A stretch of DNA of 59,730 nucleotides from Cyanophora paradoxa CCMP329 (Eukaryota; Plantae; Glaucophyta), in the NCBI GenBank assembly GCA_004431415.1, contig QPMI01000069.1:1-59730 (forward strand), read 5' to 3'. Every line of letters starts with the position of its first letter. Within the stretch, counting starts at the first letter, position 1. Shown here in pieces: positions 19,204 through 59,730 of the stretch. Both the position numbers and the translations under genes were made by a program. The notes beneath the pieces were generated by a model. That model was not told the origin of the DNA and ran no database searches. It worked only from the letters and a program-made list of their open reading frames with translations.

Positions 19204-19255
19204 CCCACGACCTGTAGCGTGTAAAGCTAACGCGCTACCACTGCGCCAAGGGAAC
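19204..19255 (-). pseudogene. 3'-truncated copy of tRNA-Val(TAC)
   Basis: Identical to the 5' 52 nt of the tRNA at 17026-17097; ends just before the TTCGA T-loop and lacks the 3' acceptor strand. Confidence 0.88.
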
Positions 19256-41229: not shown

Positions 41230-42815
41230 TGTAGTGACACATATGAATATTCATATTTTAATCCCTCGGCGTTCCGCCTCAGGATTAAAATATGAATATT
41301 CATATGTGTGATTCGATGTTATATCAATAAAATCGATTAATTTATTTGAATTTTCACATGAATTTTCATATTTTTATATGCAATTTCAATTAATTTAATC
41401 GATGTTATATCGATAAACTCGATTAATCGATATTGTATCTTAATTGTAGTTAATCGGAATTATATCAATAACTTCGATTGATCTTAATTGAATCCTAAAT
41501 GAATCTAATCGGAATTATATCAATAAATTCGATTAAATCATGTTCTTTTCCGATTAAATCAATTAAATATTTAACTTTGTTATCATAAGTGGTCTAAGTT
41601 GACTCACTTTCATAAACATTTTGAACTCTTAGTCTCTTTGAATTTCTTAAGATGACTCAACTTAGTCAACTTAGTCAACTTTGTTACCATAATCAATCAG
41701 GGTGGACTCACTTTTAGATCAACTTTGAAATTTCAAGCAAAATCAACTTGGATTTCAAAAGTGGATCTTCTAAGTGGACTCAAAATGTTCACTTTGTGAT
41801 ACATGTTAGCTCAAATCCTTACTGTTTATGGTCAGGGTTGACTAAGTGGGGGGAGTTGACACATTTTTTGAAATCCTTTTTAGAAAACTTTTGGTCCCAA
41901 ATATTTCCTGTGAAATTTGAGTCAACTCAACCCACTTAGTCAACCCTTGCATTGAATTCGTAACAAAATCCATATACTATTACTACTTTTACGATTTATA
42001 TGAGTCAACCTTGAGTCCACTTTAATATAAATATTATATAATAGGGGGAATCAAGGGGAGATGCTTATAAACATATGAATTATTGAGCCTATGATACTTA
42101 CATCGTCAGGCAGGCCTCGTTAAGAGGATTCCGAATCTGTTTTTGGTTTTGTCACATGATGAGTTGGTGAAGAGATACATGCATTTTAGTGTTTTGTATG
42201 TGGTTTAATGATATGATGTCATAATGCATGGGTTTTCGTCAACAGTTAAATGAACAGTTAAGTGGACACCGTTTCACGATAAACGAGTAGACACTGCCTA
42301 CTCCCAACAGGTGTCCACTTAACTGTTCACTTAATTGTTCGCAATTTGCTTCATTGTCTTTCAATAGCTTTCCCGCATATCTTGTTTTCAATTGTTGTTG
42401 CAGTACACTATTACAATAGTTGTCTCGTTAACTGTTCACTTATCTGTTCGCTGCGGAAAAAAGACGATGACGGACGTGTTATGTTACGAAATGATGTCAT
42501 AATGACGATGCATATGTATATGATATATATGACACACCATCGAACTCGGGAGATCATGACGATCACGGCGATATATATATGTTATGTGTTTATGATACAT
42601 CATTATTACATCATTATGATGCATCATTCCGAAATCTCGAAAAATCGATAATCGGCATCTTCAAACGCTTGTATCTCATCACCAGATTATCAAATCGCAA
42701 CGTTCTGCATATCGCTGTGAAGCGCTTGAAAAGATCTACAAGACAATGTGTATATCATATGCATATATGTATATCAGTCATACATATATTTGGAAAAAAC
42801 GAGTTTTCGGCTAGC
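41230..42815. repeat. Non-coding structured left end, putative terminal inverted repeat region
   Basis: 28-bp perfect hairpin (41237-41264/41282-41309), four ~28-bp direct repeats (41313-41536), AGTCAAC/GAGTCCAC palindromic module (41590-42025) and a 30-bp hairpin (42241-42270/42310-42339). The partner TIR is not visible, so TIR status is inferred. Confidence 0.65.
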
Positions 42816-42818
42816 AAA

Positions 42819-44204
42819 CTAGCTAGTTTTGGTCCTCTCTCTTAGTGTTCTTTGAGGTTTAGGGGCTGTATATGACTCCTTAGTAGTCTGAAAGTCACTA
42901 TACCATCTCTGGCTATTCACTTCTGAAAGTTTCTGTGTGCCTGCTATGGTGAGCTTTTTGAGTTCCCTATTAACTTTCCCAGCCTTCTCCTTCCTAGCCT
43001 CTATCAAAGGCTTATCTGGGACTTCATTAGCAGCTTCTATGCCTTCTCTCCTTATAGCAGCATCAACCCTAGCTTCCTCTTTAGCTTGCTCTAAGGCATC
43101 TACTGTAGGGGTTTCCAGATACTCAACTGCATTCACAGGCAACAGCTCATGGAAAGCAAACCTGTTATCTATGATCTCTCCAGTGGGACTCTTTAGCTTA
43201 AACTTAAAGCCTTCCCTACTATCAACAGTGTAAACCATCCTAGACCAATTGTTACCCTGTTTAGCAAAGGGGTTCTTCTCTACTTTCACTCTAACAAACA
43301 TGCCAGGCTGCATGGTATCAAGATAAGCTATTGATTTCTTGAATCTTTCATCTTCTAATCCTACTATATACCTATAATGCTCCTCTGTAGTTTCACCTGG
43401 CTTCATCTTAGTAGCTGAGTGAACTGTATTATTGTAATTAAACTCAATATCACCCAACACATCAAAGAATCTAGCTGTGTTATTAGCTATGCAGTAGTTT
43501 GTGATCAATCTCTTAATCTGCTTGTTAAAGGCTTCAATTCGACCTTGGCTCCTATGGTCTGCAGTTCCACTCACTTGGTGTTCTATGTATTTACTAGATA
43601 AATACTCCTGGAATATTCGATTTTGGAATTCACTCCCAGCATCTGATTGAACTTTTACTATGGGTCTTGCTACTCTCATCTCAAGCTGTTTAAATGCAGC
43701 TAATGTAGTGAGAGCTGATTTATCCCTTATAGGTATGATATACCCAGTTCTCAGTGTTGATTCCATTGCAGTCATAAAGGTATCATAGCCATTGTTTTGT
43801 TTCTTATAAGCTGGGAAAAAGAGCAAATCAATCACATAGGTATCAAGGGGTTGCCTTATTGGGACCATGGGATCTCTCTTCCTAGATATAGCAGGTGCAT
43901 TGATCTGAACTACCTCTTGCTTTTTATAGAACTCTTGCAACTGCTTATAGGATTCATCTGGTAACTCAGCCCTCATAGCTTGAAGCCCTTTGTAACCAGT
44001 TCTCACATCATAGAATCTCTTGGCAATCTTGCTAGTTTCTTTCACTGCAATAGCAACTGGGATCTCTACTGGGACAAGCTCTTTCATCTCAGACTTTTTG
44101 ACAATTCGAGATTCCCCTTTTTCCTCCTTTGGAACTGTGATAGGCAGTAGGTTACCTTGCAGTTGCTCAGTGGTTCTCCTTACTATTCTTCCAGTTGCTG
44201 GCAT
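42819..44204 (-). CDS. Retroviral-like (rve) DDE integrase of Maverick/Polinton type
   Basis: Intact 461-aa ORF with YVIDLLF (D), VQSDAGSEF (D), QGRIEAFNKQIK (E) and YNNTVHSATKMKP, followed by an SH3-like VRVK..NWSRMVYTV segment. Confidence 0.95.
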   Translation of the reverse strand: MPATGRIVRRTTEQLQGNLLPITVPKEEKGESRIVKKSEMKELVPVEIPVAIAVKETSKIAKRFYDVRTGYKGLQAMRAELPDESYKQLQEFYKKQEVVQINAPAISRKRDPMVPIRQPLDTYVIDLLFFPAYKKQNNGYDTFMTAMESTLRTGYIIPIRDKSALTTLAAFKQLEMRVARPIVKVQSDAGSEFQNRIFQEYLSSKYIEHQVSGTADHRSQGRIEAFNKQIKRLITNYCIANNTARFFDVLGDIEFNYNNTVHSATKMKPGETTEEHYRYIVGLEDERFKKSIAYLDTMQPGMFVRVKVEKNPFAKQGNNWSRMVYTVDSREGFKFKLKSPTGEIIDNRFAFHELLPVNAVEYLETPTVDALEQAKEEARVDAAIRREGIEAANEVPDKPLIEARKEKAGKVNRELKKLTIAGTQKLSEVNSQRWYSDFQTTKESYTAPKPQRTLRERTKTS

Positions 44205-44207
44205 CTC

Positions 44208-47200
44208 TTAATTAAAAGGAACAGAATTAATACCATCTGGTAAGATGTATCTCTTTGCATCAAAGCAGTTTAGGGCAACCCTTCTACTCACAGTATCTAT
44301 TATTGTGTGATCTGCCCTTCTTTTCTGCTTTGCAGTCACAGTCTTGCTGATACCTGCAAATAAACACTCCTTAAAATCATTGAATTGGAGTTCCTCAGTG
44401 GAAGTCCCAGATAGCTTACTTCTCTCAATCTCAGCAGTTCTGAAACTGTAAACTTTGGCTCTCAGACCTACATACTCCAATATAGCAGAACCTGGCATCT
44501 CATTTTTGTATTTACCTGGGGTCATTCTGTTAGATCCCCTAAGTCCAGATTAAAGGATATATTCTCTAGGTCTTTTTGGAGGGTCTGAGATTCGATATAT
44601 AGACAAAAGGAATCAGTATCATGGAATAGTAACTTTGCTTTTGCCCACTGGGACCTTACAGTATCATAGAAGAACTTGTAGTTATGCAGTTTGGCAGTAT
44701 CCAAAACATAAGCCCCAATAGCAACAGGCTTATCTAGCTTCACATGTTTTGTGTAAAACTCAAAGGCAACTGCCCTTTCACTTATGGGACTTGTTGATTT
44801 CACCAATGGGGAAGCTGCATATTTCATAAATAGCTTCTCAGTGTTGGCAATCTTAACCACAGATCGACCTCTACATGATTCAATGCATTTCCCATAGATT
44901 GAATTATTCATGAGCTTATAGAAATCAGCCTCGAATTTATTCACTGCTTTCCTTCTCATATCAGTATTCAGCTCAATGTAGGGTTTCATTACAGGAGCCA
45001 CAGTAAATGATAGGACCCTGTGAACCTTCTTTAGTTTCACACCTTTAGCTAACATGTATTGTAGAAGAGGCTCAGAAACTACATAGTTGGTCACAGAACC
45101 AAAGGTTGCAGTTAGCTTAGGGTTTTATCAAGCTCTTCTCCTGAGAGATCCAATAGGCTTTTTTGATATTGTGATAATTCGGCATATTCTACTATTTTCT
45201 TGTTAATAATTAGAGGGAAATCACTGTGATCTAGAAACAGCCTAATTGGGTAATCCAGATCAACTTCTAGGAAACTGGATCTGTTATCTTGTGGGTTGAA
45301 TTCGGTCTCCCATCTAAAATCACCAACTGGGATTGGCTGACTCAAACAGTAGCCATACAAGTTGTTAGCATCAAACAGCATAATATGGGAGTTCTCACCA
45401 TCAGCCTCAGCATACCTACAAGGCATTGTTGCAAACCCACCCCTGATTCCCCTCTCAACAAATTCGTATTGCTCTACATCACTTATAAGCTCTATTTTTG
45501 CCTTGGTGGTCCTAAGCATAGCATCCCAAGATAACCCTGGTGCAGATACATAATGAACTGGGTCAAGTCCATATACTGAGTGTGAAAGCCTTCTAAATGC
45601 CTGGAATTTGTTCATTAACTCAGTCACATCAGCAGCTCCGAAATCCATGAAATTGCTTGCATCAATGAACTTGTAAAGACCCCATTGCAATGAAAGGTAT
45701 TGATCAAAGTTTTTCGAAAGGATTTCGATTCGCTTTTTATCACCCATGCCTGCTATTTTTCTGAAAATGAATGTCCCACAGTCATCCATTTGATCAACAA
45801 CAACTGCAACTTTGGTTTGCTTTGAGATTCTCCTATGGAGATTGCAGTTTCTGCATGCAGGGGCAATGTAATGACCTGTGTGGTGATCATGATCCCTGCA
45901 TTTGAAGTTTTCCTTAGTGAACCTCTCACTGCAAAGGTAACAGTGTTTAGTAGCCTTGTAAATTGCTTTCTGCTCATCTGTGAGTTCATTCATGGGAATA
46001 TTGGTAAACAGGAAGTCAATTAGCTCTCTTGCTTTGGACTCCAAGCATTCAAACAGACCTCCCATTGGATCCTGACCCTCAAATCGAAAATCTTGAGCAT
46101 CTGCCCCAGTGACTACTCTGAGGTTGACTGCTGAGACTTCTCTCTTGGATTTTGATGCATCAATGGGGATGCTTCTATGTTCAATCTTGCAGTAGACCAC
46201 AACAGGAAGCCACACAGTTTTCCTAAGGTTTTTCAGTCCAAACTCTATTGTGGTCTCAGGCTTAGGAGTGATTCCCTTTGAGAGTCTCCAATCAATGCAT
46301 CTATTTGAGTCCACATGAGCAGTGAGTTTAGCCTCAGACCTGAATCGAGATAAGCATGTGTCACAGTAGTGTAACTTCTGATCATTGTATGTTTCATGGT
46401 TTACTTTCAATAATCTTGAAAGGGACATGATTGTAATATAATGACCATTCCCTTCATCATCAAATATCAGCATGAGATTAACCTTATGCTTTCTGCCTGG
46501 GTTACTTGATTGATGCAGGGGATAAATAACCTCTCCATCGATTCCAAATATATTAATGCTAATGCCTGCATTTTGAGCCTCGAATTTATCAATAATATCA
46601 GCATCACAGGCAACAGGGAATGGGATGTTATCGAAATTGAGAGCCAGCGGATTATAAGCGATTGCTGAGTATTTCCATTTGCGATATTGTGAAAGCTCAT
46701 TCCTCTTATGGGAGTTTATCGCTTTTCTGTGAATATATGCCAAAATTGCATTTTCGAAGCAGGAATCATCAATATTTCGAATATTTACTGTGGCTCTCTT
46801 CCTAGCAATCCACTCTGGGGTTTGTAGAAAGCATCCACCAGTTGGAGCATAACTCATAATAGCCACTCTGAGTATTTCAATTCTTTCTAAGCGATAGCTA
46901 TCAACCACATTCATCTGCTCCTGACACATTTGGGCTGCTTTATTCAGCTCAGTTCGAATATTTCTCGACCTGGTTAATACAAAGTAATCACTGTAAATGT
47001 ATTTCGATATCCAAACCTGTGGATTGCTCACTTTAACGAACTTGCAGATAAAAGACAAGCGAACCTTGATTGCCCTGAATTGATCTAAACCCTGCTTTAA
47101 TCGATTTGGAAGGGATGTAGCAATTCTATCCAGGAATTCAATCACATCTACAACAACTTCCCTTCTGGCTCTGTAAGTGAGCCAGCGATATAATTCATTC

Positions 47201-47451
47201 ATGGCTGTTCCATCTTCTGCATCTGGTTCTATTTGCCTAAGCCTATCCAATTCATCCAAGGTTTCAATTTTATCATATAGGTTATTTGCTTTTCTGGTTA
47301 ATCTGCTTAAAGTGGGTCTGCCCTTTGCAATTAAATCTATTTCCCGGTCATATTCAGCCTCTGTAATTTCATGGGCTGCATAAAGTGTTCCCAGCAATCC
47401 CATGAGTTCCCATTTCTTCTCCCTTATGAGTTTGTTGGTAATTCGGGGCAT
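44208..47451 (-). CDS. Protein-primed family B DNA polymerase (pPolB), split into three ORFs by two 1-bp indels
   Basis: DANNLYGY (motif A), KLMNNSIYGK (B), FHDTDSF (C), GKYKNE..GLRAKVYS, YGLDPVHYVSAPGLSWDAML and endonuclease VII-like CYLC..RDHDHHTG..CRNCNL. Adding one C to the CCC run at ~45120 gives KTPKLTATFGSVTNY; adding one G to the GGGG run at ~44537 gives GGSNRMTPGK. Confidence 0.95.
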
Positions 47452-47511
47452 TATTCCTAACTTGTTCCTATTCTAAGGGGATATTTTATTTTAGGATGTT
47501 CTAAACGCAAT

Positions 47512-47862
47512 TTAAAATGTTTTAATGGATCCATTGGCTTCCTCTGAATGAAATCGCAAAAACCTATTAATCCTAAATCGGGATTTCGGTTTTTGTAAAT
47601 TGACTATCCAAGGTTCAAAGAGATACATGTAATATGCTTCTCTGTTCATTAGGTCTTCATGCCCACCCTTCTTACTTGAATACAGGACTGAGAACTTCAC
47701 ATCAGAAGCCTTGCATAGGTCTGCTGTAGATGGCATTTGACCTGATTTGTGTTGTCTCCATCTTTTTTGTAGTGGCTGTGAGGTTCTCCCTATATAAACT
47801 TTATTCAATTCTTCACTCTCAATCATATAGATCGATCCAGAATCATGATCTGTTCCAGCCAT
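47512..47862 (-). CDS. GIY-YIG endonuclease
   Basis: GSIYMI..KVYIGRT..LQKRWRQH..REAYY..VN, the canonical GIY/YIG, Arg, Glu, Asn pattern. Confidence 0.9.
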   Translation of the reverse strand: MAGTDHDSGSIYMIESEELNKVYIGRTSQPLQKRWRQHKSGQMPSTADLCKASDVKFSVLYSSKKGGHEDLMNREAYYMYLFEPWIVNLQKPKSRFRINRFLRFHSEEANGSIKTF

Positions 47863-47913
47863 TTCTTACTACTTACATATAAATATATTTTTCTATCTCT
47901 TAAATCATTTTTT

Positions 47914-48100
47914 GGTTGACTTAGTGGGTGGAGTTGAGGCACTTTTTATTTCTTTTTAGGGCAGAGTCCTTTTTTAGAATCTGTGAAAAAATGAGTCAAC
48001 TCCCCCCACTTAGTCAACCTAATCGATAAATAAACCATAAATAAAAGACTGTTTGGGTCTTTTATGATAAATTTGAGTCAACCATGAGTCCACTTTTGAG
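47914..48100. repeat. Internal copy of the palindromic AGTCAAC/GAGTCCAC module
   Basis: 47995-48019 is the exact reverse complement of 41836-41860 (25 bp); tgagtcaaccatgagtccacttt at 48074 matches 42001 with one mismatch; the copy has its own internal inverted repeat (47914-47936/47995-48019). Confidence 0.88.
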
Positions 48101-48105
48101 TAAAC

Positions 48106-50700
48106 CTAAACTTCAACATCAGAATCATAATCTGATGCATCAGGATCAGCAGCAGGTAGGTCCTGTTTCATCCTTGGATTAGCTTCTTCCTCAATAGTCT
48201 CATCATCTACAAGCTTCATCTTTCTGAATTCCTCAAATACTTGTGGGAATAGGAAATGATAGTATTGTTTGCCATTTGTAGTTTTCACTTGGATATATGT
48301 AACACTTCTCATTTCAGTATAATATCGGCGACTATTATAATCGTTTTTATATTTATTGCTGGTAATAAACTCCTGGAACCACTTCCAGGTTTCCACAAGG
48401 CTACCAGACTTGCATTTATTCTCGGAAATTAAGCCTCGATCCACAAGCCACTTAGTGAACATAAGAATGATTGGAGCGCACACCTGTTGGGCTAAATAGT
48501 ATTTATTTGTAAGGGGTCTATCAGCAATCCAGTTCACATCCTCACAGTCAACTTTGGTTCTCAAATAGTGGGCAATGTTTCGAATATTGCAGTGATCATT
48601 TAGCCATTTTACAAGTGGAAGGAAGTATGACCTATCCTTTGCGAATTTCTTACTAACTTCAACAACCACAAATCGCCTATCTCCAGCTTCAATTTTCACT
48701 GGAATGTTGTTATTGCTGGTGAATATAATCCTGGCAAAGTTGCTTTTTGTGTATGAATCTATCCCTTTGTGTTCAATTACAATCTTATCAGAAGTTATGA
48801 GATCTTTGAGCATATCATTATTTTCGAATGTGTCCTTGCCTGAGGCTTCATTCACAACAATCAAGATCTTATCCTCTCTATTGTGGGCAAATCGACCAAA
48901 CAGATCCTCTTTTGGCTTTCCAGTTGCATAACTTAGGGCATCTCCAAGTATCTTCTTTTGGAAAGTATCAACCAACACATTTTTACCAGTTCCCTGCTCA
49001 CCAATGAAGATTAAGGATACTCCATTGAGTTCCCCAGGCTTTTGCAGCATGTGGGCAAACCATTTCAACAGATATTCATAGGTATTTTGATCCTCACCAG
49101 ACATTAAGAACAAGTGATCTAGGAAAGGCTTAATCATCTCAGCAGTTACATCCTCTGGAGCATTTTCGAATTGCTGATGGTCGACCTTCATTCCTGGATA
49201 GAGATTAAATACAGACTTGCATTTTGCACTGAGAGAAGCAGGAGGGGGAAGGAAATCCATGTAAGTTGATCTTGTGGCTGTTGGATCCACAATCCATTTC
49301 CTAAATGATTGCTCCCATTTCTCTTTCTCATTATCTGTTCCCTCATTGACAATCACCTTATGCATCAAATGGGGGAAATGCTTTGTAGAGAGCTTCCCAA
49401 TATCTTTGGGCATCCAGCAAAGTAGTTGTTCATCCCAGAGCATCACACAACCAACATTTTCAACATGATGCATTCGAGCATTGAAATACCTCTTATGCAC
49501 ATTGTAATGTTCAGCCAAAGGAGGGATACTTGCAGTCTTGTAATCGATTTCATCTGTGTCCTCTGGTAGGAATGCATACTTTTTGGGGAAGAGTTCCTTG
49601 AAAAGCTCATTGTTATCTTTGCTCAACCAATAAACCAAGGATTTGAAGGTCAACACTTTGCCAGGCTCAGCCTTCTTCTTGCTTCTGCGAAGCTGTGTAA
49701 ACTTCTCCTGGCATTCATCATAATCATACTTGTCACTCTGTTCTGAGAATTGGTGGAAGAGTTCAGCTTGCATTTTAGGGGTGAACTTGTTGTCTTCCCC
49801 AACATTGATGATGACCAGTCCTACATCAATCCAAGTTTTATACTCATTAGCTCTCTCACCATTCAGACCCATTATAACACTTTGTAGCAGTTCGAAAGTA
49901 ACAGGATTTTCGGGTTCAGTGTCTTTTTCAGCTTCTACCTTCTCAGTCTTCACTTTATCACTTTTTGGCTCCTTTTTAACTGGTTTTGGCTCAGGGCTAT
50001 AATTTGCGAATGCAGAAATATTCGATTCATCCACAAGTTTAGTAGAAGCTGAGAAGAAAGATACAAAGAAGTCCTCATTTCGCATTAACACTTTGTCACA
50101 GTCAACGAATTTCTTAAAGCAAACGTTTTTATCAACATCTTTCTTTGATTTATTTTGAGCATCCAGAGTCTCACCTTTGCAGCAATTGAGGCAGATTAGG
50201 TTCTGTGTGGAGCTGTAAACTCCACTGTCATAATCCTCATTTTTCACCAATCCCATCGCTTTGAAAAGCTTGGGGATATCTTCATGTTTGCATGCAAGCG
50301 ATTTAATAATAAAGTGGGCTGAAATCTTGAACTTGGTGACATCCTCCTTAATCAAATAAACCCTTCTATGGCGAACTGCAACAGCAATATCGTTAATAGA
50401 AGTGGTACCAGATCGCTTCCATAGCTTATCTCTCATCTCTCTTACAACAGTTTCCGCCTCAGCATAGTTATCAGCAATGTTCTCCTTCAAATCAGCGAAT
50501 TTATCCAGGTCCAGGTAAACTCTGGTCACTTGCTCAGGTTGAATGCATTCAGCCCAGGTCTTAACCTTGCTATTATCAATGGCTTCAAGGGCATCTTCGG
50601 CAGAATCAAATACATGGGTGACCTTGTTGCGATCACCAATGAGAGTACTAAGGAATGTAGCATTTTCAACAGGGGTGGCGAATTTCTCGATTTTGTTCAT
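48106..50700 (-). CDS. Primase-helicase: AEP/PrimPol domain, PriCT-2 and SF3 helicase
   Basis: Intact 864 aa. AEP motifs RVYLDLD, KISAHFII and DSGVY; PriCT-2 EYKTWIDVG..FHQFSEQSDKYD..TFKSLVYW; Walker A GEQGTGKN; Walker B LIVVNEA; IIFTSNN; GDRRFVV. Confidence 0.95.
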   Translation of the reverse strand: MNKIEKFATPVENATFLSTLIGDRNKVTHVFDSAEDALEAIDNSKVKTWAECIQPEQVTRVYLDLDKFADLKENIADNYAEAETVVREMRDKLWKRSGTTSINDIAVAVRHRRVYLIKEDVTKFKISAHFIIKSLACKHEDIPKLFKAMGLVKNEDYDSGVYSSTQNLICLNCCKGETLDAQNKSKKDVDKNVCFKKFVDCDKVLMRNEDFFVSFFSASTKLVDESNISAFANYSPEPKPVKKEPKSDKVKTEKVEAEKDTEPENPVTFELLQSVIMGLNGERANEYKTWIDVGLVIINVGEDNKFTPKMQAELFHQFSEQSDKYDYDECQEKFTQLRRSKKKAEPGKVLTFKSLVYWLSKDNNELFKELFPKKYAFLPEDTDEIDYKTASIPPLAEHYNVHKRYFNARMHHVENVGCVMLWDEQLLCWMPKDIGKLSTKHFPHLMHKVIVNEGTDNEKEKWEQSFRKWIVDPTATRSTYMDFLPPPASLSAKCKSVFNLYPGMKVDHQQFENAPEDVTAEMIKPFLDHLFLMSGEDQNTYEYLLKWFAHMLQKPGELNGVSLIFIGEQGTGKNVLVDTFQKKILGDALSYATGKPKEDLFGRFAHNREDKILIVVNEASGKDTFENNDMLKDLITSDKIVIEHKGIDSYTKSNFARIIFTSNNNIPVKIEAGDRRFVVVEVSKKFAKDRSYFLPLVKWLNDHCNIRNIAHYLRTKVDCEDVNWIADRPLTNKYYLAQQVCAPIILMFTKWLVDRGLISENKCKSGSLVETWKWFQEFITSNKYKNDYNSRRYYTEMRSVTYIQVKTTNGKQYYHFLFPQVFEEFRKMKLVDDETIEEEANPRMKQDLPAADPDASDYDSDVEV

Positions 50701-50953
50701 TTTCGATTTTGGGACTTCTACCTTTAACGAAGAAAATAATTTCGGAAGGAGGAATTGTCTTTTATATATATCCTATTATTTGCCAAGTCCTTAAGTAGTT
50801 TTGGGTCGGGATACTGTCTCGATATATAGGTACAGTTTTAAAAAAGAGGGAAGAAAGCTGTCATTTTTTTGCCTCCGATCAAATCGATTTCTACAAAATT
50901 TGTTTCGATCGAGAATTTATTCTTCGATATATTTCCGAGGTCTTCCAACCGGT

Positions 50954-51241
50954 TTATGCTCTTTGGGTTTCTTGGCTGTTCATCTTTCTTCTTGTGGTAA
51001 TATTCCAGCGCTTTTGCCTTTTTTTGCTCGCGATATTCTTCATTTTCCCTGTATTTCCTCTGGTGTCTGAGGGCAATCTTTTTGAGTTCTTCTGGTGTGT
51101 GAACTGTAGCGGCTCCTTGGGATAATCGTTCCTGCTTCTTTTTATGATAGGCTTCGCGTTTTCTTTGGCATCTTGCTCCCTTTTCAGTCTCAGCTTCTCT
51201 GCTTTTTCATCATCTGTGAGTATCTTGCGGATATTCGGCAT
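50954..51241 (-). CDS. Small basic hypothetical viral protein
   Basis: 95-aa Lys/Arg-rich ORF in the same orientation as its neighbours, with an AT-rich leader; the C-terminal frame may be affected by an indel. Confidence 0.5.
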   Translation of the reverse strand: MPNIRKILTDDEKAEKLRLKREQDAKENAKPIIKRSRNDYPKEPLQFTHQKNSKRLPSDTRGNTGKMKNIASKKRQKRWNITTRRKMNSQETQRA

Positions 51242-51290
51242 TTCTCTTTAATAGTAGATACGAAAATAATTTTTCCTCAATACAATCTAT

Positions 51291-51638
51291 CTACTTTTTC
51301 CTTAAGTCATTTTTTGTTGCGAACACCAGTTCCTGTCTGTAAACTTTTATAGCTGCCTCAGTGGCATACTGAGACCGCTTTTTCTCAATTATCTTATAGA
51401 CCTGGGGTCCATTGCTACTATCAGTAGGCAAATAATATTTAATCGGTCTCCCTCTGGGTCTCTGCTCCTCTTTTTGGGCTTTTCTGCGATAATAGGATGC
51501 CAGGGCTTGCTGCTTTTTATACTCTCTATATTCTGGGTCCTCTCTATATCGTTTCTGCATTGCCAGAATGTGTCTTATAGACCCCTCAGTAACAGGTTCA
51601 TCACTGGTAAACTCGATTAAACTAATAGTGTCCTCCAT
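51291..51638 (-). CDS. Hypothetical DNA-binding protein with an AT-hook-like motif
   Basis: Basic helix KRYREDPEYREYKKQQALASYYRRK followed by RPRGRPIK. Confidence 0.6.
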   Translation of the reverse strand: MEDTISLIEFTSDEPVTEGSIRHILAMQKRYREDPEYREYKKQQALASYYRRKAQKEEQRPRGRPIKYYLPTDSSNGPQVYKIIEKKRSQYATEAAIKVYRQELVFATKNDLRKK

Positions 51639-51892
51639 TTATATTCCAGAGAAAACGTTTTCTGCTGGCAGAGAACTTCTCCTTGGATACTCCTGTTGCT
51701 CATATGTATACTCTGTGGGTCTGCTGGCATTGACTCCACAGACACTGTTGATCTTCTTCTCTCTCTTGCTTCTGAGGCATTATCCTCATTATCTGACATC
51801 TCAAACTCTATTGTTGTGTCACAGCATCCACTGTGGCAATTGCTGACCACATGCAGACTGAGCATCTCAATAAACTTTCGTATTATATCCAT
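51617..51892 (-). CDS. Hypothetical viral protein
   Basis: 91-aa ORF with SNCHSGCC near the N-terminus, tightly packed between neighbouring genes. Confidence 0.45.
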   Translation of the reverse strand: MDIIRKFIEMLSLHVVSNCHSGCCDTTIEFEMSDNEDNASEARERRRSTVSVESMPADPQSIHMSNRSIQGEVLCQQKTFSLEYKWRTLLV

Positions 51893-51960
51893 GTCTCTAA
51901 TAAAACAGAGAAAATTAAAGCCAAACTCGTCTTTTATATACTGTTGGGCTACTCCCTTTT

Positions 51961-52646
51961 CTACTTCAGCTTTGTGGCACCAGGCTCAATGGTTCCCTTT
52001 TGGGTCTTTGTTTTCATTTCATCTACTGCTTGCTCATCGATTTGGTTCTCCTTCTTGGCAATAAACTGTTTATCTGGGACACCAGTAATGCCCATTTTAT
52101 AAACTTCCTTTCGAAGCATCTCCTTTAGCTTGGCTCTCTCTTTCTTCTCAGTAACATACTGCTCCAAGGCACTTGATTTGGCTTCCAGATCTTTGAGTTT
52201 AGCAGTCATCTCATCCCATTGAGCCTTGGGAATTCGATGAATATTTTGAGTGGGAGCAGTCTTATATGTGACTTCACCAGCCATAGACTGAATAACCTTG
52301 TCTGATTCCTTACTAAGACCTTCACCTTTGCGAGCCAGTGAAAGATCTTGCAAGCCTAAACCTTTATCATCAGCAGCCCCAATAATTCGCCTGGCACCCT
52401 CAGCAACAGCTTTCATTTTTGAGGCTTCTGGTGAGATGTTGAGTTGGTCACTGGTTGAAGCCTGTGGGCTTTGTCATCGACTGATTCCTCATAGGCAGCA
52501 TTAAGAGGGTCTTCTTCTTGTTGTGAGGGCTTCACCTCATTCATACCATTGAACTTCAGTGGTTCAGTGTTAATGGATCCATTGTTTCCACCACCTGAAT
52601 AGCCAACAGCCCCAGCTGGGATCCCTATCTTTCGTTTGGGAGGCAT
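51961..52646 (-). CDS. Hypothetical coiled-coil protein, probably one gene split by an indel near 52415-52470
   Basis: Two abutting ORFs (52413-52646 and 51961-52416); N-terminal MPPKRK resembles an NLS; predicted helix MTAKLKDLEAKSSALEQYV. Confidence 0.55.
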
Positions 52647-52724
52647 TGTATCTTTATTAGAATGAGAGATAATTTTATAAACCGCGTTTATATCGCATCA
52701 ATTTATTGCTATGGACTTGGCTTT

Positions 52725-53454
52725 TCACTTCTTTGGGGCTTCCTCTTTCTCTGGTGGTTTCAGTTCATCTTCTTTCTTCTTGGGCTTCCTGTGGAAGCGA
52801 GGAAATGGGAAATCTTTCACAAGCTCAGCTTTATCTACATAGTATTTAACTGAGTAGTTTGCAGAGGACCAAATAATATACTGATAGGAGTGAACATACT
52901 CTTCAAACATCTTGTAAAATCCTCTTTATTTCGCATTATATTGTATTCTTCCTCTATGGCTTCAAGTTCTTTGCGATTTGCAGCACTGAGAAACATAGCA
53001 TAGTCCGAATTAACTCGAATAGTCGAAGAGACTTTCCTTAGCTTTTGTGTGATGCAGATAATGGATATTTTCGAATGGCGACCTCTGGAATACAGAGAGC
53101 CAATAATTTTATCACGAGTTAGGTCTACAATCTCATTATCTATAAGATCATCTAAAACTACACATAACTGGTTAACAGGTTGACCTTTTTCTATTTTCTC
53201 TTGCCTTTCATCTAGCAATTTAGCAATGTAAGGGCATCCCATTTTCCCAGTTGCAATGTTGCAACTTTATCCCAGAAATGATTGAAGCTGGTTCCACTCA
53301 CAACTAATACAACATCAATCTTTTTGGCATCATGCAACTGCTTCAACCAATACTTCACAGCTTCTGATTTACCAGTTGCTGATTTTCCTATTGCCAGTAC
53401 ACGAAATGGTGGCTCTATCATTTCACCAGCCACAAATTCATCCAAATCAGTCAT
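52725..53454 (-). CDS. Genome-packaging ATPase (A32/FtsK-HerA family), frameshifted
   Basis: Walker A IGKSATGKS, Walker B CVVLDD, family motif SRGRHSKISIICITQ and IRVNSDY, spread over three frames. Confidence 0.92.
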
Positions 53455-53519
53455 TGTTGTATATCTTTCTTAATAAAGACATATAAAAATAATGCAGGGA
53501 GACTGAATATCGTCACAAT

Positions 53520-54883
53520 CTACAAATTTATACGACGAAGCCCATCTTTGTCGACAATAATAAAGCTATGCATGAGAGCGCGAACATTAACATCGATTAC
53601 CTTATCTGAAGGCATGTAGAGGGTGAGGAATGAAGAGGAGGAATTTGTTAAATCAACATAACCAGACTGGGCAATATTTCGAATCGCCTTTTCTCCATCA
53701 AGGCAGAAAGGCAATCCTGAAAGGACATAGCGATCAGCAACCTTATCCATGTTAGAGCATTTGAAGGCATCAGCAATTAGCTCAGCACCTTTGAGTAGGA
53801 AATTGGCTCAGTGGCAAAAAGTCGCTGTCCATTTATTTCAGTTGTGAATGTTATCTCTTTGGAGTTGGCATAGGTCTTAAGAACACTGTGGGAGCCTGTG
53901 GATTTATCAACAGTTGCATTATCACGAACTGAAACAAGCAGAGCATAAACCAGTCCAGAGATTTGAGAGAGGTTAATTCGATTGGGTTGGGCATTGCCCT
54001 TGGCAGGGAAAGCACTAGCATCAACAAACCCAATGTCTAGAGCAGGAATAGCCATGCCAGTAGTCTTTACTTTTTCAATAACAGTAGCGAAAAGCTCATC
54101 AGAAACATTAATAGCATGCATGTAAAGGCGAGGAGAGGTAATTGTAATACCAGGGTTGTTGCACCAAGACTGAAAGTGGTGATGTTTTGACCAACATGGG
54201 CAAGGGTTCCATCTGTGAAGTTTCCAAGACCATCATCGGCAGTTGCATCAACTGTTCCAACAGCAGTTGTGAGTTCACGACCACCATAGGAAGTTTCAAC
54301 ATAACCCTTCTCAGCATCCTTAAACCAAACAGTAACAACCATTTCACCAGATAAAGCACCAAGGGAAGGTAGTGATTTAGCCAAGGCACAGGAATTTCAA
54401 CGAAAAATGAGCCACCAAGGCGGTTGGTTCCATGAGCAGGAATGCCATGAACCATGCCCATTGATCGCTTCTTTTTAGCTAGTTGATCCTCCGAATAATA
54501 GACCAGGGGAAATGAGCAAGGAAATCAGATGGAATATGGTAGGTGTAAGATCCATAGGTAATTTCAAGTCGCTGAACTAAAGCACCAACTGGGCGAGTGT
54601 ATCCATTGCGAACTAGGTCAGTATCACCAGCAAAAGTGATGGCTGGAAGGTCGAAAGCAAGTTCGAGTTTTCCACAGAAATTGTAGCGAGGTAGCTTAAA
54701 GGAAATGCGATTTCCAACATTATTCTCAAAAGTATTGCTGGGATTCACAACAACTAGAACTGGCTTAGACTTGGATTCGAGACCAAGCATAAGGGAGTTA
54801 TCCAGGAAAAAGGCTTTCGCCTCCTCTGGGGTTGTTAGGGCTTCTTTCAGCGAAAGTCTTTGAAGAGTGGAAGTGATATCCAT
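53520..54883 (-). CDS. Putative double jelly-roll major capsid protein, frameshifted
   Basis: About 450 codons in total, beta-strand-rich (NRISFKLP, LELAFDLP, LVQRLEITYG, FFVEIPVPW, MVVTVWF, INLSQISGLVYALLVSVR, FTTEING, GYVDL, FLTLY), adjacent to the ATPase and penton-like genes. Call rests on pattern and context. Confidence 0.72.
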
Positions 54884-54935
54884 TATATTCTCTTTTATTA
54901 TACTGCAACATAAAAATCTACCAATGATCCTTAAT

Positions 54936-55939
54936 TTATGCGAAGCTTGTAATAACTGGATAGGAAGGGTGAAGCTGCGACATTCTCATCTTAAAGTATT
55001 CATAAACTGGGTCTCCTGCTGGCTCATCACCATAGCGAATTTCAAAGGTCAGATGAACAGGTTGACCCTCAAAATCAATTGGTTCATTTACAGCATTAAC
55101 AATATCAACCGAGAAAGTGGATAATCCAACCTTTTGTTATAGTATTTATAAAGTGGATGAGCTTCTGTTGAATTGTAAACAACATGCTCACCATAGTCTT
55201 TATCAGGGACCACTATTTTGTGAAAGTAACCAGTCAGAAGACCATCCCACATTGCACCAGATCACCCAGCTCCTTTACTCTCACAAACAAAACACTGTCC
55301 CTGTCTTCTCAGGCTCAAAAGAAGATATAATGCCATTCACGCGACCACCAGTAAAGATTCCATCAGTGAGAGCATCATAGACCTGTGATTGGATTGGGAG
55401 TTACCATATCTTCCAGGATCAAGACCCAGCAGTCTAGCTGAACTCAACAGCTTTTGGATTGTTTGTTGGCTTGGGTTCACAGCTACTGAGAAAGCCAAGT
55501 AAAATGGTACTGCTGAGTGGAATATAATTCGTTTCAGTGATTCATCCCATTTGCAGCGAATGGATGGTTGGGGATTTCTGCCTTCGAATTTAGAGTTAAT
55601 TACATTCACCAGTTGCTGTGGCTTTGGATGGGGGTGTTTCGACTTATAATGAATTGTTTCCATTGTTCATAGTCAGCAGCTGGGCGAACTGTTGGAATTC
55701 CTGAGCTTCCAGCTCCAGGAGTTTGTTCAGAATAATAAATGCTAATGCATTGTCAACTGTCACATCTCCTGCTTTGTTTCACCACTCACCATAGGGATAC
55801 TGTTATAAAATTCGGCTGAGACCAGTCTCACAGCCCTCACATTCTCATAACTACTGGGGAGTCTAGCCACAAAGCTTGATGTGGGACCATCACCAGAGAT
55901 TGTATTAAATGAGCTAACCTCGATGTAATCCACAGGCAT
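54936..55939 (-). CDS. Putative minor capsid (penton-like) protein 1, frameshifted
   Basis: Manual translation: N-terminus MPVDYIEVSS..SSFVARLPSSYENVRAVRLVSAEFYNS; middle LLGL; C-terminus LSTFSVDIVNAVNEPIDFEGQPVHLTFEIR, typical of PLV/NCLDV single jelly-roll minor capsids. Confidence 0.68.
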
Positions 55940-55967
55940 TCTTCTTTATCTATATTTATATATTAAA

Positions 55968-56890
55968 ATGAACCGGCTCGTTAATATTGATAGCAGGGAT
56001 AGAAGCCAAGGACAAAATGAAAACTCTTACAGGGTCACCCTCACAACTCCAGTAGAGAGACCAAGGGAATGTAGGGTTCTCTATGCAGAGATTCCAAACA
56101 GTATCTATAACAGTGTGGGAACTGATCATCTAACAGTTCAGTTTAATTACCAAGATGGTTCATATAACCAAGTGATCACACAACAAGTGTATCCCCTTCC
56201 CAGTGGCTACATCAATCAGGGTCATTTTGGGTCACACACCCTTATAATTATGGGCTGAACTATTCAAGCTTCCAAACTATGCAGGCAAAACAGTAGCTTT
56301 GAGTTCAAGATATTCTACAACCCAACTACCTATAAAGTGGAGTTTTACAGTAACCATGAGTTTCGTTTTATTGCAAGCAACCAGAGAATAGGGAAGCTTT
56401 TGGGTGTGAGTTCTACTGAATACACCAATGGTTATTATAGCACTCCTCCTGCTGGTGGAATCTCCCTATCGACCTGAGAACCTTTTAAAGTATGATGGCA
56501 AACCTATTACACCTGATCACCCAGCATGGGGAATCACCTTCTCAGGACCAGACTCTCATCTAAGCCCTTGCAATATTATTTTGACAGCAGAAAGATGTCT
56601 GATATGAATGCTGAGCAGATCTATACATGCACATTAAAGAGCTTGCCCCTTTTGCCAGCAGACACAATATAATTCCGAAATCGCAACCACATAACCAGGG
56701 GCAATCCTTAGATTGCAATTGAGTAAGGATATAGTGGCTATGTTTACCATAGAGTGAACATGCAGAATTCATTCAGATAAATGACAGAAACCTGGTGATA
56801 AGGAACTCACAGTTGAGTTTAAAGATTACTTTGGTGAACTGATTATATGAATGAATCGATAATTCTTTTCAGTTGGAGTTTATCGAATAA
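55968..56890 (+). CDS. Putative minor capsid (penton-like) protein 2, frameshifted
   Basis: MNRLVNIDSRDR..SYRVTLTTPV..CRVLYAEIPNSIYN; later GKLLG and ELTVEFKDYFGEL..NSFQLEFIE-stop. Confidence 0.72.
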
Positions 56891-57409
56891 AGGCACCTGT
56901 AAAGTCAACTCTCATTGTGAGCATTCACATACACAAGGGGATAAATGCGAATATATTTAATTCTGAGAGAAAAACCTATGTAAAAAGCATCCTTGATGCT
57001 GAGAGAAATCCACTCAATAGAGCCACATCACCTGAGTGTGAGCATTGTTAATGTTCTCACAGACATATATTTGTTTTGCCCATCTGATCGATAAAAGACC
57101 AGTTGATCCCATCATGGATGTTGCCACATGAAGTCTTAATAAAGCATTGTGTCCCCTGATCCATAGGCAATCACAGAAGAGAGTTCAAAAGTATATGGAA
57201 AGCAACTTGAAGTATTCAGTGGGTTTCCCATATCTGCTCAGGAGCATAGGCTCCAGCTTCCCAGCCAAATGCTGAAGTCTACCATGAAGGCTCTTACCAG
57301 TCACAGAGGATAGGCAGTGAAGCATCATCTGCAAGCTGATACCAATTAGCATCCAAAGTGTGATGTAGTGAGAGTGGATGAGATGTAAGCCTTGTAGGTC
57401 TTTAATCAT
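56880..57409 (-). CDS. Possible F5/8 type C (discoidin) domain protein, heavily frameshifted
   Basis: Fragments across frames in discoidin order: GWEAG, LQVAF, VIAYG, DGINWSF, IKYIRIYP, MRVDFTG. Confidence 0.45.
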
Positions 57410-58395
57410 AGTTTGCTACTAGAATGCTGCAAAGCTTATTAATCATATCATTGTTTGCTGCTATGTATGTTTCTGTGAAAGAAAGCATATCTGGGATTTT
57501 AGAAGTGTCATCCAGGAGCTTACTATGTGATCGGAAGAGGTACTGATAACCTATAGTATCTCCCATAATCCTGATCATAGTTGTAGGGTAACAACTCCTC
57601 CATCTTATCAAGGGCAGAAAGCTCACTTGCAGCATGAGCATGTTAATCAATGGGCTTCCATCGTTGAGGCAATCCATGAGAGAATGCCCCAGCTTTGACA
57701 GTCTCATAAGCATAACCCACAATAATCAGACTCTAAATGTGGGTCACCTCTCCACAAGAGATACTTATTACTATAATCATCATCATCACTGTAAATCTTC
57801 TTTGCATGGCTGTAACCACACACACTGGGATTATTGTTTCCCGAAATGGCACCATCAATGAGACAGACATATACTCCCCGATTGAAATCAACAATGCTTA
57901 CAGGAGAAAATATGTAGGAGCAGCAGAAGTAGCCCTAGCAGCAATCTTACAAGGCATAAAGTTGTAATTGTTGTCATTTGTGATAAATATTGGTTTCATA
58001 TTCTGAGTATCAAAGGATGTAATCACAATGTCCTTTAGGGAATCCTGTATTAGTGATTCACCAGTAACTGAATTGATTGCAGTCTCCAAGGGTCCCACAT
58101 CATACTTTGTGTTAAAAGGGCATTTTCATGATATTTCGAGGATTTGCGAAAATCAAGGGCAGTTGAGTTAGGTAAATATTGTGTAAATCGTTTGCTGTCA
58201 GTTTAGGTTCACCTGGTTATCAGGATGCCTTATATTCAAACCTATTGCAATGATCCCACCAGTGGAAGTTCCACTCACAAGATCCACAAGATCGATTATT
58301 CTCCTGCCAGTTCGATTTTCGATTTCTTTTAGCAGCCTGGTTATGATAATGCCCCTTGCACCCCCGCAGAAAGACTAAACGACCTTGAGAGGCAT
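57402..58395 (-). CDS. Patatin-like phospholipase, frameshifted
   Basis: GGARGII (oxyanion loop), LVSGTSTGGIIAIGL (GxSxG), IVITSFD, AARATSAAPTYF and LIDGA (catalytic Asp). Confidence 0.88.
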
Positions 58396-58438
58396 CTTTT
58401 ACTTATCAGGAATTTTATAAATCCATATAGTAAAAGCC

Positions 58439-59704
58439 ATGAGCTTCAATTACCCACCAAATCTAGAAACCATTCAAGATGATAATGCAAGCAGCACCAA
58501 GCATGTGAACTTTGATAATATTAAAGTAAAGGGTTCAGTTTCAATTGACCACAGCTCTGATAATTCATCAAAGACTCAATCAAGGAGCATGCTTTATCTG
58601 TGAATCAAACCGATCCAGATAAAGAGGATGTCAGTGTAGCCTTTAGTTTGGGTAATGTGAAAGCAAACCAAGTGGCAGAGATCAAAGCAACAAGAAGGAG
58701 ACCTAGGAAACTAAAAACCAGTGGCACTCACCCAGATATACCTTCCAGGTTCGATAGTGGTCGATTGATTTTCAATGTTCAAGATGAGCAGGGCAAACAG
58801 AACACAGCTTTGCGAATTTACAATGAGGGCAGCACTGCAAAAGCTGAGGTCCCCCAAGTATTGCAAGTGGGTCCCATTGCCAATACAAATCAGGTCTCCT
58901 ACACAAATGATGTCTACCCCAAGGATATTACATATGACTTTGCAAGAATGAGCCTTTTGGGTTCTTTACTCCAAAAGATGTCCATCAAAAAAAAGCCATC
59001 AATTACAATCAACAGTAGCCCCAGTCAACCAGTAGCAATCCATTTACACCTGATTTAGTCGAAATGGATAGGCACCTTTTGCCTTTGTATAGCAATGTGA
59101 AAGACCTTGGAATTCGAACCAGGCAATGGCGAAATATCCATGGCAGCAATGTGTATGCAAATGGAGAAGCTTGTAAGTGAGAAAACCCTAAGAGAAATCA
59201 TTGAGCATTATGGTCCCAATGGACCTACTGTCCCATTCCCTATTCCATTTCCCAATGGACCACCGATTTAACACCAAAGAAGCAACCTGGAAGAGAATAC
59301 ACAGCAACTGAAGATGTAGCCTTTGGGCAGCATATTGTTAGTTGGGAGCAAGTTCGCAATAAACCTATAATTGAACCAAAAGCAAATAGATGAGCAGTAT
59401 TTACCTCCTGAAATCGATATATTAGAGCTTGATGAATATCAATTCGTTCCAGATGAGGAAGATTTTACCAGATGGTTTTGACCCACAAGAATATGAGTAT
59501 GATCAGTTTGACCCAATGAGGAGGAGATACTCCCAGATGGTTTTGACCACAAGAATTGAGTATGAACAGAACTATGAACCTGATGAGGAGTATTTACCAG
59601 ATGGTCATGATCCACCAGCTGTTGACTATGAGCAACCTTATGAACCCCATGAGGAATTGTTACCAGATGGATTTCGACCTGAGATCTGGGAGTTCTTTCC
59701 CTGA
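58439..59704 (+). CDS. Putative fibre/spike-like protein with acidic C-terminal repeats, frameshifted (could be two genes)
   Basis: GRLIFNV..TALRI, HLLPLYSNVKDLG..RQWRNIH and WEQVRNKP resemble tail-fibre motifs; the C-terminus has four LPDGxxP acidic repeats. Confidence 0.45.
59445..59685 (+). repeat. Coding tandem repeat, four units of ~65 nt (~22 aa; EE.LPDGFDP..YEY)
   Basis: ccagatgg cores at ~59468, 59533, 59597 and 59663. Confidence 0.85.
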
Positions 59705-59730
59705 TTTGAACAAATTAATAAATAAACCTG

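What the first reader, a model, noticed from the sequence alone, without database searches (positions are those of the whole stretch)
42819..59730. Extreme, context-specific CpG depletion in viral genes: survivors are almost all TCG/CGA
Seen: by manual count 42841-44204 has only 3 CpG in ~1360 bp (at ~43540, ~43618 and ~44107), all in TCGA, where about 50 would be expected at ~40% GC. In the pPolB lines inspected, nearly all CpGs are TCG or CGA (rare exception GCGG at ~46648). Host genes are CpG-rich, and the non-coding 42230-42810 keeps CpG in many contexts. Inference: the footprint of a host CpG methyltransferase or silencing system that spares TCGA-like contexts, acting through deamination or viral avoidance.
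Basis: partly seen in the sequence, partly recalled or inferred. Interest (0 to 1): 0.72.

Follow-up and report, generated by a model that had tools for sequence, protein, structure and literature searches.

The report
Methylation scars in algal integrated virus
A virus integrated in a likely algal genome has lost about 70% of its CG dinucleotides in a flank-dependent way (TCGA kept, ACGG gone) and also lacks GGCC and most GYRC words; this likely records host DNA methylation that skips TCG, plus likely avoidance of restriction sites, and public methylation data could test it.

Summary
In 42819-59730, a multi-copy Polinton-like virus, there are 203 CpG against 680 expected; 183 of 203 are TCG/CGA (51% expected by composition). 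TCGA is not depleted (70/61), whereas CpGs with neither a 5' T nor a 3' A fall to 20/334. This survives codon-shuffle controls, and none of 23 viral contigs with a related integrase shows it. Loss is graded by the 5' base on each strand (A>C>G>>T, about zero for T), is roughly strand-symmetric, reaches non-coding DNA, and at fourfold sites the missing C reappears as T. That points to 5mC deamination rather than plain avoidance. The rank equals the known human deamination order, but human proportions under-predict TCGA, so a TCG-skipping methylase is likely; mouse DNMT1 does not fit. Against: host DNA and an adjacent retroelement fragment keep their CpG; the host (probably Cyanophora) is unverified here; no methylome by flank was seen. 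The scan's notes held no earlier report of this signature. Verdict: new variant of a known phenomenon, directly testable.

The parts
42819..59730 (.). Region carrying the signature: flank-graded CpG loss, no GGCC, few GTAC/GCAC/GTGC; the element runs off the window end
41237..41309 (.). Palindrome with 28-bp perfect arms at the step from 55% to about 33% GC; likely left end of the element
   Evidence: arms; end-hairpin reading taken from earlier notes e1-10643541 and e1-10595815, not tested further
41312..41600 (.). AT-rich terminal repeats with 11 CpG, 8 of them in TCGA and the other 3 TCG/CGA
   Evidence: (family D17)
41601..42229 (.). Non-coding stretch with the same CpG loss as the genes (5 vs 18 expected, all TCG/CGA)
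42230..42818 (.). CpG island, no context bias (30 CpG; 9 non-TCG/CGA vs 9.5 expected); likely unmethylated regulatory or origin DNA, or a recently gained module
   Evidence: copies nearly invariant over 42232-42573
42819..44204 (-). rve integrase, 461 aa, intact; most eroded gene (3 CpG, O/E 0.05)
   Evidence: Pfam rve E 1.4e-4, below cut-off; 5879 relatives, one at 76% identity
44208..47451 (-). Protein-primed family B polymerase with endonuclease VII-like insert, in three ORFs in this assembly; CpG O/E 0.09 (3' part) and 0.30
   Evidence: Pfam DNA_pol_B_2 E 0.002, Endonuclease_7 E 1.5e-4
47512..47862 (-). GIY-YIG endonuclease
   Evidence: Pfam E 1e-10
48106..50700 (-). Primase-helicase (PriCT-2 + DUF5906), 864 aa, intact; CpG O/E 0.33
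50701..51290 (.). Second CpG-rich stretch upstream of the primase-helicase (22 CpG, O/E 1.05; 5 non-TCG/CGA vs 9.9 expected)
52835..53454 (-). A32-like packaging ATPase, in two ORFs
   Evidence: Pfam Pox_A32 E 2.5e-8
53523..54883 (-). Likely major capsid protein, in pieces; CpG O/E 0.47
   Evidence: N-terminal piece 54482-54883 resembles Capsid_N clusters (Atlas score 0.98 but low recognition); no Pfam hit; extent of the rest is inferred
57405..58374 (-). Patatin-like phospholipase, in pieces
   Evidence: Pfam Patatin E 1e-7 for the first piece; 3' extent inferred
40061..41230 (+). Flanking retroelement-like fragment used as control: high depth in reads, CpG O/E 1.03, no context bias
   Evidence: zf-RVT E 0.019

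Best explanation
The virus has lost CpG by C-to-T change in a flank-graded way, most likely because its integrated copies are CpG-methylated by a host enzyme that is predicted to skip TCG and the methylated cytosines likely deaminate and become fixed over many rounds of latency and copying, while the missing GGCC and GYRC words likely reflect separate avoidance of restriction sites. Shown: the counts, the grading by 5' base on both strands (loss about 1.5 for A, 1.2 for C, 0.5 for G, 0 for T, natural-log units against control viruses), the C-to-T sink, the two spared islands. Inferred: that 5mC is the cause, that the writer is a host DNMT1/DNMT3, that deamination escapes repair when the viral polymerase copies the element through single-stranded intermediates (which would explain why host DNA keeps its CpG), that the islands are unmethylated promoter/origin DNA, and that a co-infecting giant virus or an earlier host supplies the GGCC and GYRC pressure.
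For: Fourfold sites before G: C 6 of 350, with T taking up the loss; C-to-T transfer fits (p 0.42), proportional avoidance does not (p 2e-5). NCGN survival fits a product of two strand factors (deviance 11.9, 6 df) and not a uniform rate (179, 9 df) or additive equilibrium (29.1, 6 df). Rank A>C>G>T equals the order of unrepaired 5mC deamination in MBD4-null human cells, ACG > CCG > GCG > TCG (PMC11564873, passage). Both strands are affected alike (coding strand TCGB 25, VCGA 23) and non-coding 41601-42229 too, so the target is duplex DNA, not mRNA. Likely promoter/origin stretches keep CpG, the opposite of what escape from promoter silencing predicts. If the host is Cyanophora paradoxa, it has DNMT1 and DNMT3, 32% mCG, methylated repeats and viral genes, and non-CpG methylation at background (PMC12344493, passages). 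0 of 23 related viral contigs show the pattern (TCGA-to-VCGB survival ratio 13.9 here, 0-1.84 there), while sharp palindrome loss is common among them (16 of 23 have a non-VCGB palindrome at O/E 0.2 or less, 7 of these 16 by CTAG alone).
Against: Host DNA 1-39000 (O/E 1.19) and the adjacent high-depth retroelement fragment (O/E 1.03) show no CpG loss. CpG loss is as deep in Arg codons, where C-to-T changes the protein (VCGB in that frame 2 vs 56 by resampling), which suggests some selection on the motif. After C (NCN codons) the lost G is only partly replaced by A (A 0.35, C 0.22, G 0.03, T 0.41), weaker than deamination predicts. A C-to-T sink can also arise from recent selection if transitions are the easy path. 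Among copies, 42232-42573 (19 CpG) is one invariant contig in one run and few listed variants are CpG transitions, so ongoing deamination was not seen (contigs drop rare variants, and the stretch is an island). Mouse DNMT1 favours the surviving hexamers TTCGAA, ATCGAT, TTCGAT, ATCGAA (class >1; PMC7381644 source data). The host was not identified by sequence (one search found nothing).
Confidence: 0.55

Rival explanations
1. Selection against methylatable or recognisable CpG: variants with fewer non-TCG CpGs escape host silencing or a CpG-reading defence, and lose them mostly by transitions.
For: Loss is equally deep in all three codon frames, including Arg codons (2, 2, 2 observed vs 67, 56, 45 by resampling); G after C is not replaced by A alone; host DNA keeps its CpG.
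Against: Proportional avoidance is rejected at fourfold sites before G (p 2e-5); likely regulatory stretches are the CpG-richest parts; the smooth grading follows the deamination order.
Confidence: 0.2
2. The methylase is viral, not the host's: a C5 methyltransferase of a helper giant virus, of this virus family (perhaps in the part beyond the window) or of an earlier host methylates VCG, and possibly GGCC and GYRC too, during lytic replication, and deamination follows.
For: Explains why host DNA is untouched; GGTC/GACC is enriched (108 vs 82) and Gly codons before C are mostly GGT (15 of 21), as inner-C deamination of GGCC would give; most Polinton-like viruses encode methyltransferases (10.64898/2026.06.19.733378, passage).
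Against: No methyltransferase gene was found among the 32 ORF pieces scanned with Pfam, though the element is cut by the window end; spared islands are more typical of chromatin-guided methylation; T before C is also favoured in Val and Ala codons, so the GGT excess is confounded.
Confidence: 0.17
3. Pure restriction-site avoidance: several 4-base cutters (ACGT, CCGG, GCGC, CGCG, GGCC, GTAC and asymmetric ones) together remove most CpG contexts.
For: 7 of 16 palindromic 4-mers are below 0.45; related viral contigs avoid such words.
Against: Avoidance in relatives is all-or-none by site (L021: ACGC 5/48, ACGT 3/49, but ACGG 42/48, ACGA 97/98), whereas here nine of ten CpG classes fall along a four-parameter gradient with a C-to-T sink.
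Confidence: 0.05
4. TCGA is shielded by an adenine methylation (TaqI-like) that blocks an otherwise unbiased CpG methylase, or the pattern is a by-product of composition, codon use or assembly error.
For: TCGA is not depleted at all and WTCGAW is enriched (41 vs 22); TCGA words cluster at the end and upstream of the primase. The assembly has single-base gaps.
Against: Half-sites are spared in a graded way (0.72, 0.33, 0.22), which a palindromic mark does not predict; codon shuffles and resampling do not reproduce the pattern; short-read contigs cover all 30 bins of the stretch, most at 95% identity or more.
Confidence: 0.03

Closest known systems
5mC deamination signatures SBS96/SBS1 (PMC11564873 and PMC12376743, passages read)
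   Same: CpG-to-TpG loss ranked ACG highest and TCG lowest; SBS96 order ACG > CCG > GCG > TCG equals the order here.
   Different: SBS1 proportions (41.6% ACG, 12.4% TCG; not normalised for site abundance) predict only 29-43 TCGA against 70 seen (deviance 54-116); here TCG loss is about zero.
Repressive CpG methylation of endogenous viruses in protists: Amoebidium adintoviruses and giant viruses (PMC11244446), Cyanophora and Acanthamoeba (PMC12344493); passages read
   Same: Integrated Polinton-related viruses are methylation targets; Amoebidium has a flank-biased methylome (CGC/GCG about 70%, other CG about 20%).
   Different: The passages read report methylation, not CpG erosion of the viruses; the flank bias there favours CGC/GCG, here loss is strongest at ACG and CCG; no flank-resolved data for Cyanophora were found.
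Mammalian DNMT1 flanking preference (PMC7381644; passages, section 8, source-data parts 1, 3, 4)
   Same: Large NNCGNN differences; its best sites include TCCGTA and TACGGA (CCGT/ACGG is 0/82 here) and a very poor site is CGCGAG (GCGA is largely spared here).
   Different: It favours TTCGAA/ATCGAT-type sites and disfavours CTCG, whereas here WTCGAW survives best (41/22) and STCGAS worst among TCGA (3/10).
Restriction-site avoidance in small DNA viruses exposed to giant-virus restriction-modification systems (PMC7253447, PMC12220804, 10.64898/2026.06.19.733378; passages read)
   Same: Missing 4-base palindromes (GGCC, GTAC), as in viral contigs L003, L009, L020-L022.
   Different: The whole GYRC family is reduced, including non-palindromic GCAC/GTGC, a specificity I do not recall for a common 4-cutter (recalled, not searched); no enzyme or helper virus was identified; PMC7253447 found no methylation in the Acanthamoeba mimivirus-virophage system.
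Polinton-like viruses / Maverick-type elements with rve integrase and pPolB (PMC12220804, passages read)
   Same: rve, pPolB, primase-helicase, A32 ATPase, likely capsid, patatin; that paper lists PLVs in Cyanophora paradoxa and patatin in glaucophyte PLVs.
   Different: No close relative in IMG/VR or JGI scans; the passages read do not mention CpG (0 occurrences).

Membership tests
Polinton-like virus (Maverick/Polinton-related) | Integrase (rve or tyrosine recombinase) | tested here: met
   rve E 1.4e-4; catalytic D/D/E-type columns invariant in 20 aligned relatives
Polinton-like virus (Maverick/Polinton-related) | Replication genes: pPolB and/or primase-helicase | tested here: met
   DNA_pol_B_2 E 0.002; PriCT_2 E 3e-9, DUF5906 E 2e-21
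Polinton-like virus (Maverick/Polinton-related) | A32 packaging ATPase | tested here: met
   Pox_A32 E 2.5e-8
Polinton-like virus (Maverick/Polinton-related) | Double jelly-roll major capsid protein | tested here: inconclusive
   Atlas look-alikes Capsid_N, score 0.98, low recognition; no Pfam hit
Polinton-like virus (Maverick/Polinton-related) | Terminal inverted repeats and target-site duplication | not testable with these tools
   Right end lies beyond the window and no genome is held; a hairpin marks the likely left end
5mC deamination footprint | CpG loss balanced by TpG/CpA gain | tested here: met
   C-to-T transfer fits before G; only partly met for G after C
5mC deamination footprint | Acts on both strands and on non-coding DNA | tested here: met
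5mC deamination footprint | Context proportions of human SBS1 | tested here: not met
   Rank agrees, amplitude does not
5mC deamination footprint | The DNA carries 5mC in vivo at those sites | not testable with these tools
   No methylation calls available; supplement of PMC12344493 has no trinucleotide data in text
5mC deamination footprint | Excess CpG transitions among extant copies | tested here: inconclusive
   3 of the C>T/G>A rows listed for 42230-42830 fall in CpG (7 such rows); island only, unpolarised, contigs drop rare variants
Mammalian-type DNMT1 flank footprint | Survivors are the enzyme's poor sites | tested here: not met
   Surviving WTCGAW hexamers are in DNMT1's favoured class
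Restriction-site avoidance | Sharp loss of specific 4-base words in all frames | tested here: met
   GGCC 0 vs 13.8, GTAC 3 vs 19, GCAC 3 vs 16, GTGC 7 vs 18 in ORFs, each below all 300 shuffles
Restriction-site avoidance | A cognate endonuclease in host, helper virus or element | not tested
   No host genome or helper virus available; GIY-YIG specificity unknown

The most novel reading that the evidence does not exclude
The virus genome is a two-layer fossil record: it encodes the flank specificity of a glaucophyte CpG methylase that leaves TCG unmethylated, unlike mouse DNMT1, written by unrepaired deamination during viral copying while the host's own DNA is repaired, and it also lists the restriction sites (GGCC and an unusual degenerate GYRC) of the still unknown giant virus or earlier host it replicates with.
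Probability: 0.3. Interest if true: 0.7.

Novelty: new variant of a known kind. Interest (0 to 1): 0.48.

Why it matters
CpG loss in methylated parasites is textbook, but a clean four-step flank gradient with TCGA wholly spared, in a host whose own DNA keeps its CpG, gives a sharp prediction about an algal methylome that has been sequenced (PMC12344493, PMC12695648) but for which I saw no flank analysis. If true, word counts in endogenous viruses could be used to read off host methylase specificity, to show that a Polinton-like virus lineage has cycled through methylated nuclear latency for a long time, to rank gene modules by time spent in the host (integrase most eroded), and to predict restriction enzymes of an unisolated helper virus.

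Tried and rejected
No whole genome is held, so host DNMTs, other repeats and sister copies could not be counted. Close relatives with DNA were not found: primase-helicase and pPolB in viral contigs, integrase and its 76% relative in metagenome contigs; the integrase alignment could not be used on metagenomes. The 23 control loci are distant (23-35% identity), several share samples or look related, and their hosts are unknown. Host identification by a host exon failed; its resemblance to glucan water dikinase is recalled only. No RNA holder was listed; run X17 is of uncertain kind and was not used. Laying contigs on the whole element gave only an unpolarised, context-free spectrum (X1: A>G 138, T>C 108, C>T 104, G>A 82) and 40 of 1266 variant rows. 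Rejected: composition or codon usage; uniform and additive-equilibrium models; SBS1 proportions alone; mouse DNMT1 preference; an mRNA-level CpG sensor (strand symmetry, non-coding loss); a 6-base GGYRCC site as cause of GYRC loss (GCACC is spared, 14/16). SBS96 numbers were not found in the supplement. PMC6138700, PMC11879396 and PMC9861306 passages added nothing decisive. Paper searches for the signature returned no paper with all terms or only the papers cited; the library lacks most subscription papers, and bioRxiv supplements were not seen.
Full report
Observation. The integrase stretch has three CpG, at 43540, 43618 and 44107, each in TCGA. Over 42819-59730 (40% GC) there are 203 CpG against 680 expected and 183 of them are TCG or CGA, against 51% expected from base composition. 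By class: TCGA 70/61, TCGC+GCGA 59/82, TCGG+CCGA 27/82, TCGT+ACGA 27/122, CCGC+GCGG 8/55, CCGG 3/27, GCGC 3/27, ACGC+GCGT 4/82, ACGT 2/61, ACGG+CCGT 0/82. In ten ORFs the CpGs with neither 5' T nor 3' A (VCGB) number 6, against 69 in 300 codon shuffles and 168 under composition-only synonymous resampling, while TCGA is at its expectation (38 vs 40 and 43). Host DNA 1-39000 has CpG O/E 1.19. Depth varies by module: integrase 0.05, 3' pPolB 0.09, others 0.22-0.47; two stretches keep CpG, 42230-42818 (1.49) and 50701-51290 (1.05); non-coding 41601-42229 is depleted like the genes.

GGCC is absent (0 vs 27; 25 by Markov expectation), GTAC is 6 vs 61 and GCAC/GTGC 27 vs 82, whereas GATC, AGCT, TGCA and CATG are at or above expectation. 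In ORFs each of these words is below all 300 shuffles and is low in all three frames. GCGC, GTGC, GCAC and GTAC together form one family, GYRC.

What the element is. It carries an rve integrase, a protein-primed polymerase, a GIY-YIG nuclease, a primase-helicase, an A32 ATPase, a likely capsid gene (a lead) and a patatin, behind a 28-bp-arm hairpin at 41237-41309: a Polinton-like virus, cut by the window end. Short-read contigs of three DNA-like runs cover all 30 bins; single contigs of the primase region have depth 1524 (X1) and 3935 (X3) against 43 and 116 for a contig I assume to be single-copy, which suggests some 35 copies of this subtype, and several one-base gaps of the window are absent from much of the contig depth (12 of 168 rows shown), so part of the frame breakage is probably assembly error. 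Copies are young: 42232-42573, with 19 CpG, is one invariant contig in run X3. The CpG loss is therefore a property of the lineage, not decay of this copy (inference). The host region is 65% GC with many short C-rich introns (23 pattern matches of 54-131 bases), which agrees with Cyanophora paradoxa (67.6% GC, mean intron 86 bp; PMC6704402, passages). Two earlier scan notes name that species; my own attempt to confirm it by protein search failed, so it stays probable.

Controls from other viruses. An alignment of the integrase with 19 relatives fetched 23 IMG/VR loci at 23-35% identity. None has VCGB O/E below 0.41 (element 0.06), and the TCGA-to-VCGB survival ratio is 0-1.84 against 13.9 here and 1.06 in host DNA. 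Sharp palindrome loss is common among them: 16 of 23 have one of eight tested palindromes at 0.2 or less, 7 of these only CTAG. L021 shows what site avoidance looks like: ACGC 5/48 and ACGT 3/49, but ACGG 42/48 and ACGA 97/98. The element's CpG pattern is graded instead; its GGCC and GTAC loss is of the common kind.

Mechanism tests. (1) Survival of the ten NCGN classes fits a product of one factor per strand set by the base 5' of the C (A 0.10, C 0.12, G 0.26, T 0.50; deviance 11.9 on 6 df), not a uniform rate (179) nor additive equilibrium (29). Against six GC-matched control loci the loss per strand is 1.47, 1.17, 0.53 and -0.14. (2) At fourfold sites before G the third base is A 114, G 39, T 191, C 6; C-to-T transfer predicts 103/42/199 (p 0.42), proportional avoidance 143/53/148 (p 2e-5). 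The mirror test is weaker: after C the third base is A 0.35, C 0.22, G 0.03, T 0.41, between the two models. (3) The pattern is roughly strand-symmetric and reaches non-coding DNA. (4) The order ACG > CCG > GCG > TCG is that of unrepaired 5mC deamination in MBD4-null human cells (PMC11564873, passage), but SBS1 proportions (PMC12376743, passage; C/G labels ambiguous, both tried) predict 29-43 TCGA, not 70. (5) Mouse DNMT1 agrees on CCGT/ACGG (favoured) and GCGA (disfavoured) but favours the WTCGAW hexamers that survive best here (PMC7381644). (6) GYRC has no transition sink at synonymous sites: Val before C is A 1, G 1, T 9, C 6 and Ala before C has A 2 of 31, which fits selection against the word. 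If the host is C. paradoxa, its non-CpG methylation is at background and no PF01555 N6/N4 methyltransferase was found in it (PMC12344493), so GGCC and GYRC likely come from another source; giant-virus restriction systems are the usual suspect (passages), although they were not seen acting in the Acanthamoeba mimivirus-virophage system (PMC7253447).

Best reading (0.55). Integrated copies are likely CpG-methylated by a host enzyme that skips TCG; 5mC likely deaminates and is fixed when the virus copies itself; promoter or origin islands likely stay unmethylated, as 6mA-marked promoters of a latent algal giant virus do (10.64898/2026.10.09.758095, passages); GGCC and GYRC are likely avoided separately. 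The chief difficulties are that host DNA and the adjacent retroelement fragment keep their CpG, that Arg codons are as depleted as synonymous sites, and that no methylation data were seen. The first needs the untested idea that chromosomal repair or GC-biased processes protect host DNA while viral single-strand copying does not. The islands could also be recently gained modules. Rivals: selection against CpG (0.2), a viral or earlier-host methylase (0.17), restriction avoidance alone (0.05), a TCGA adenine mark or artefact (0.03).

Novelty. CpG loss through methylation, flank-biased methylases, methylated endogenous viruses in protists (PMC11244446, PMC12344493) and restriction-site avoidance are all known. 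I found no paper on flank-graded CpG erosion in a Polinton-like virus (searches; open-access library only, bioRxiv supplements unseen) and no earlier scan note on it. It is a new variant of a known kind, with a prediction that existing methylome reads can settle. Interest 0.48.

Noticed in passing
window 41237-41309: Hairpin with 28-bp perfect arms at the element's left edge, like the palindromic ends noted for other viruses of this genome.
   Followed up: partly
window 41825-41869 and 47986-48030: 45-bp inverted pair (87%) bracketing integrase, polymerase and GIY-YIG; the second arm lies just downstream of the primase-helicase, as in the 'cognate origin' notes from other windows.
   Followed up: no
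window 47238-51185 versus the rest of the element: Summed contig depth is about 3-5 times lower over GIY-YIG and primase-helicase than over integrase, polymerase and capsid parts, suggesting a swappable module.
   Followed up: no
window 40061-41311: Retroelement-like ORF (zf-RVT, weak) of high read depth abutting the viral hairpin; possible preferred insertion site; keeps its CpG.
   Followed up: partly
window 17026-17097, 17046-17284 and 19204-19442: A tRNA gene (Rfam) overlapping a 239-bp repeat whose second copy, 2158 bp away, holds a truncated tRNA; SINE-like or duplication.
   Followed up: no
window 27907-32833: Five tandem copies (about 1.15 kb spacing, 72-100% identity) of a repeated domain in a large host gene on the minus strand.
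   Followed up: no
window 11500-16400: Intron-rich host gene resembling alpha-glucan water dikinase (recalled, no hit), with many introns that seem to start GC rather than GT.
   Followed up: partly
L003, L009, L020, L021, L022 (whole loci): Environmental viral contigs with near-complete loss of GATC, GTAC, TCGA, TGCA, CATG or RCGY words, each a different set; likely fingerprints of different restriction systems.
   Followed up: partly
window 59432-59704: Short ORF with acidic repeats (LPDG-type units) at the window end; no Pfam hit.
   Followed up: no
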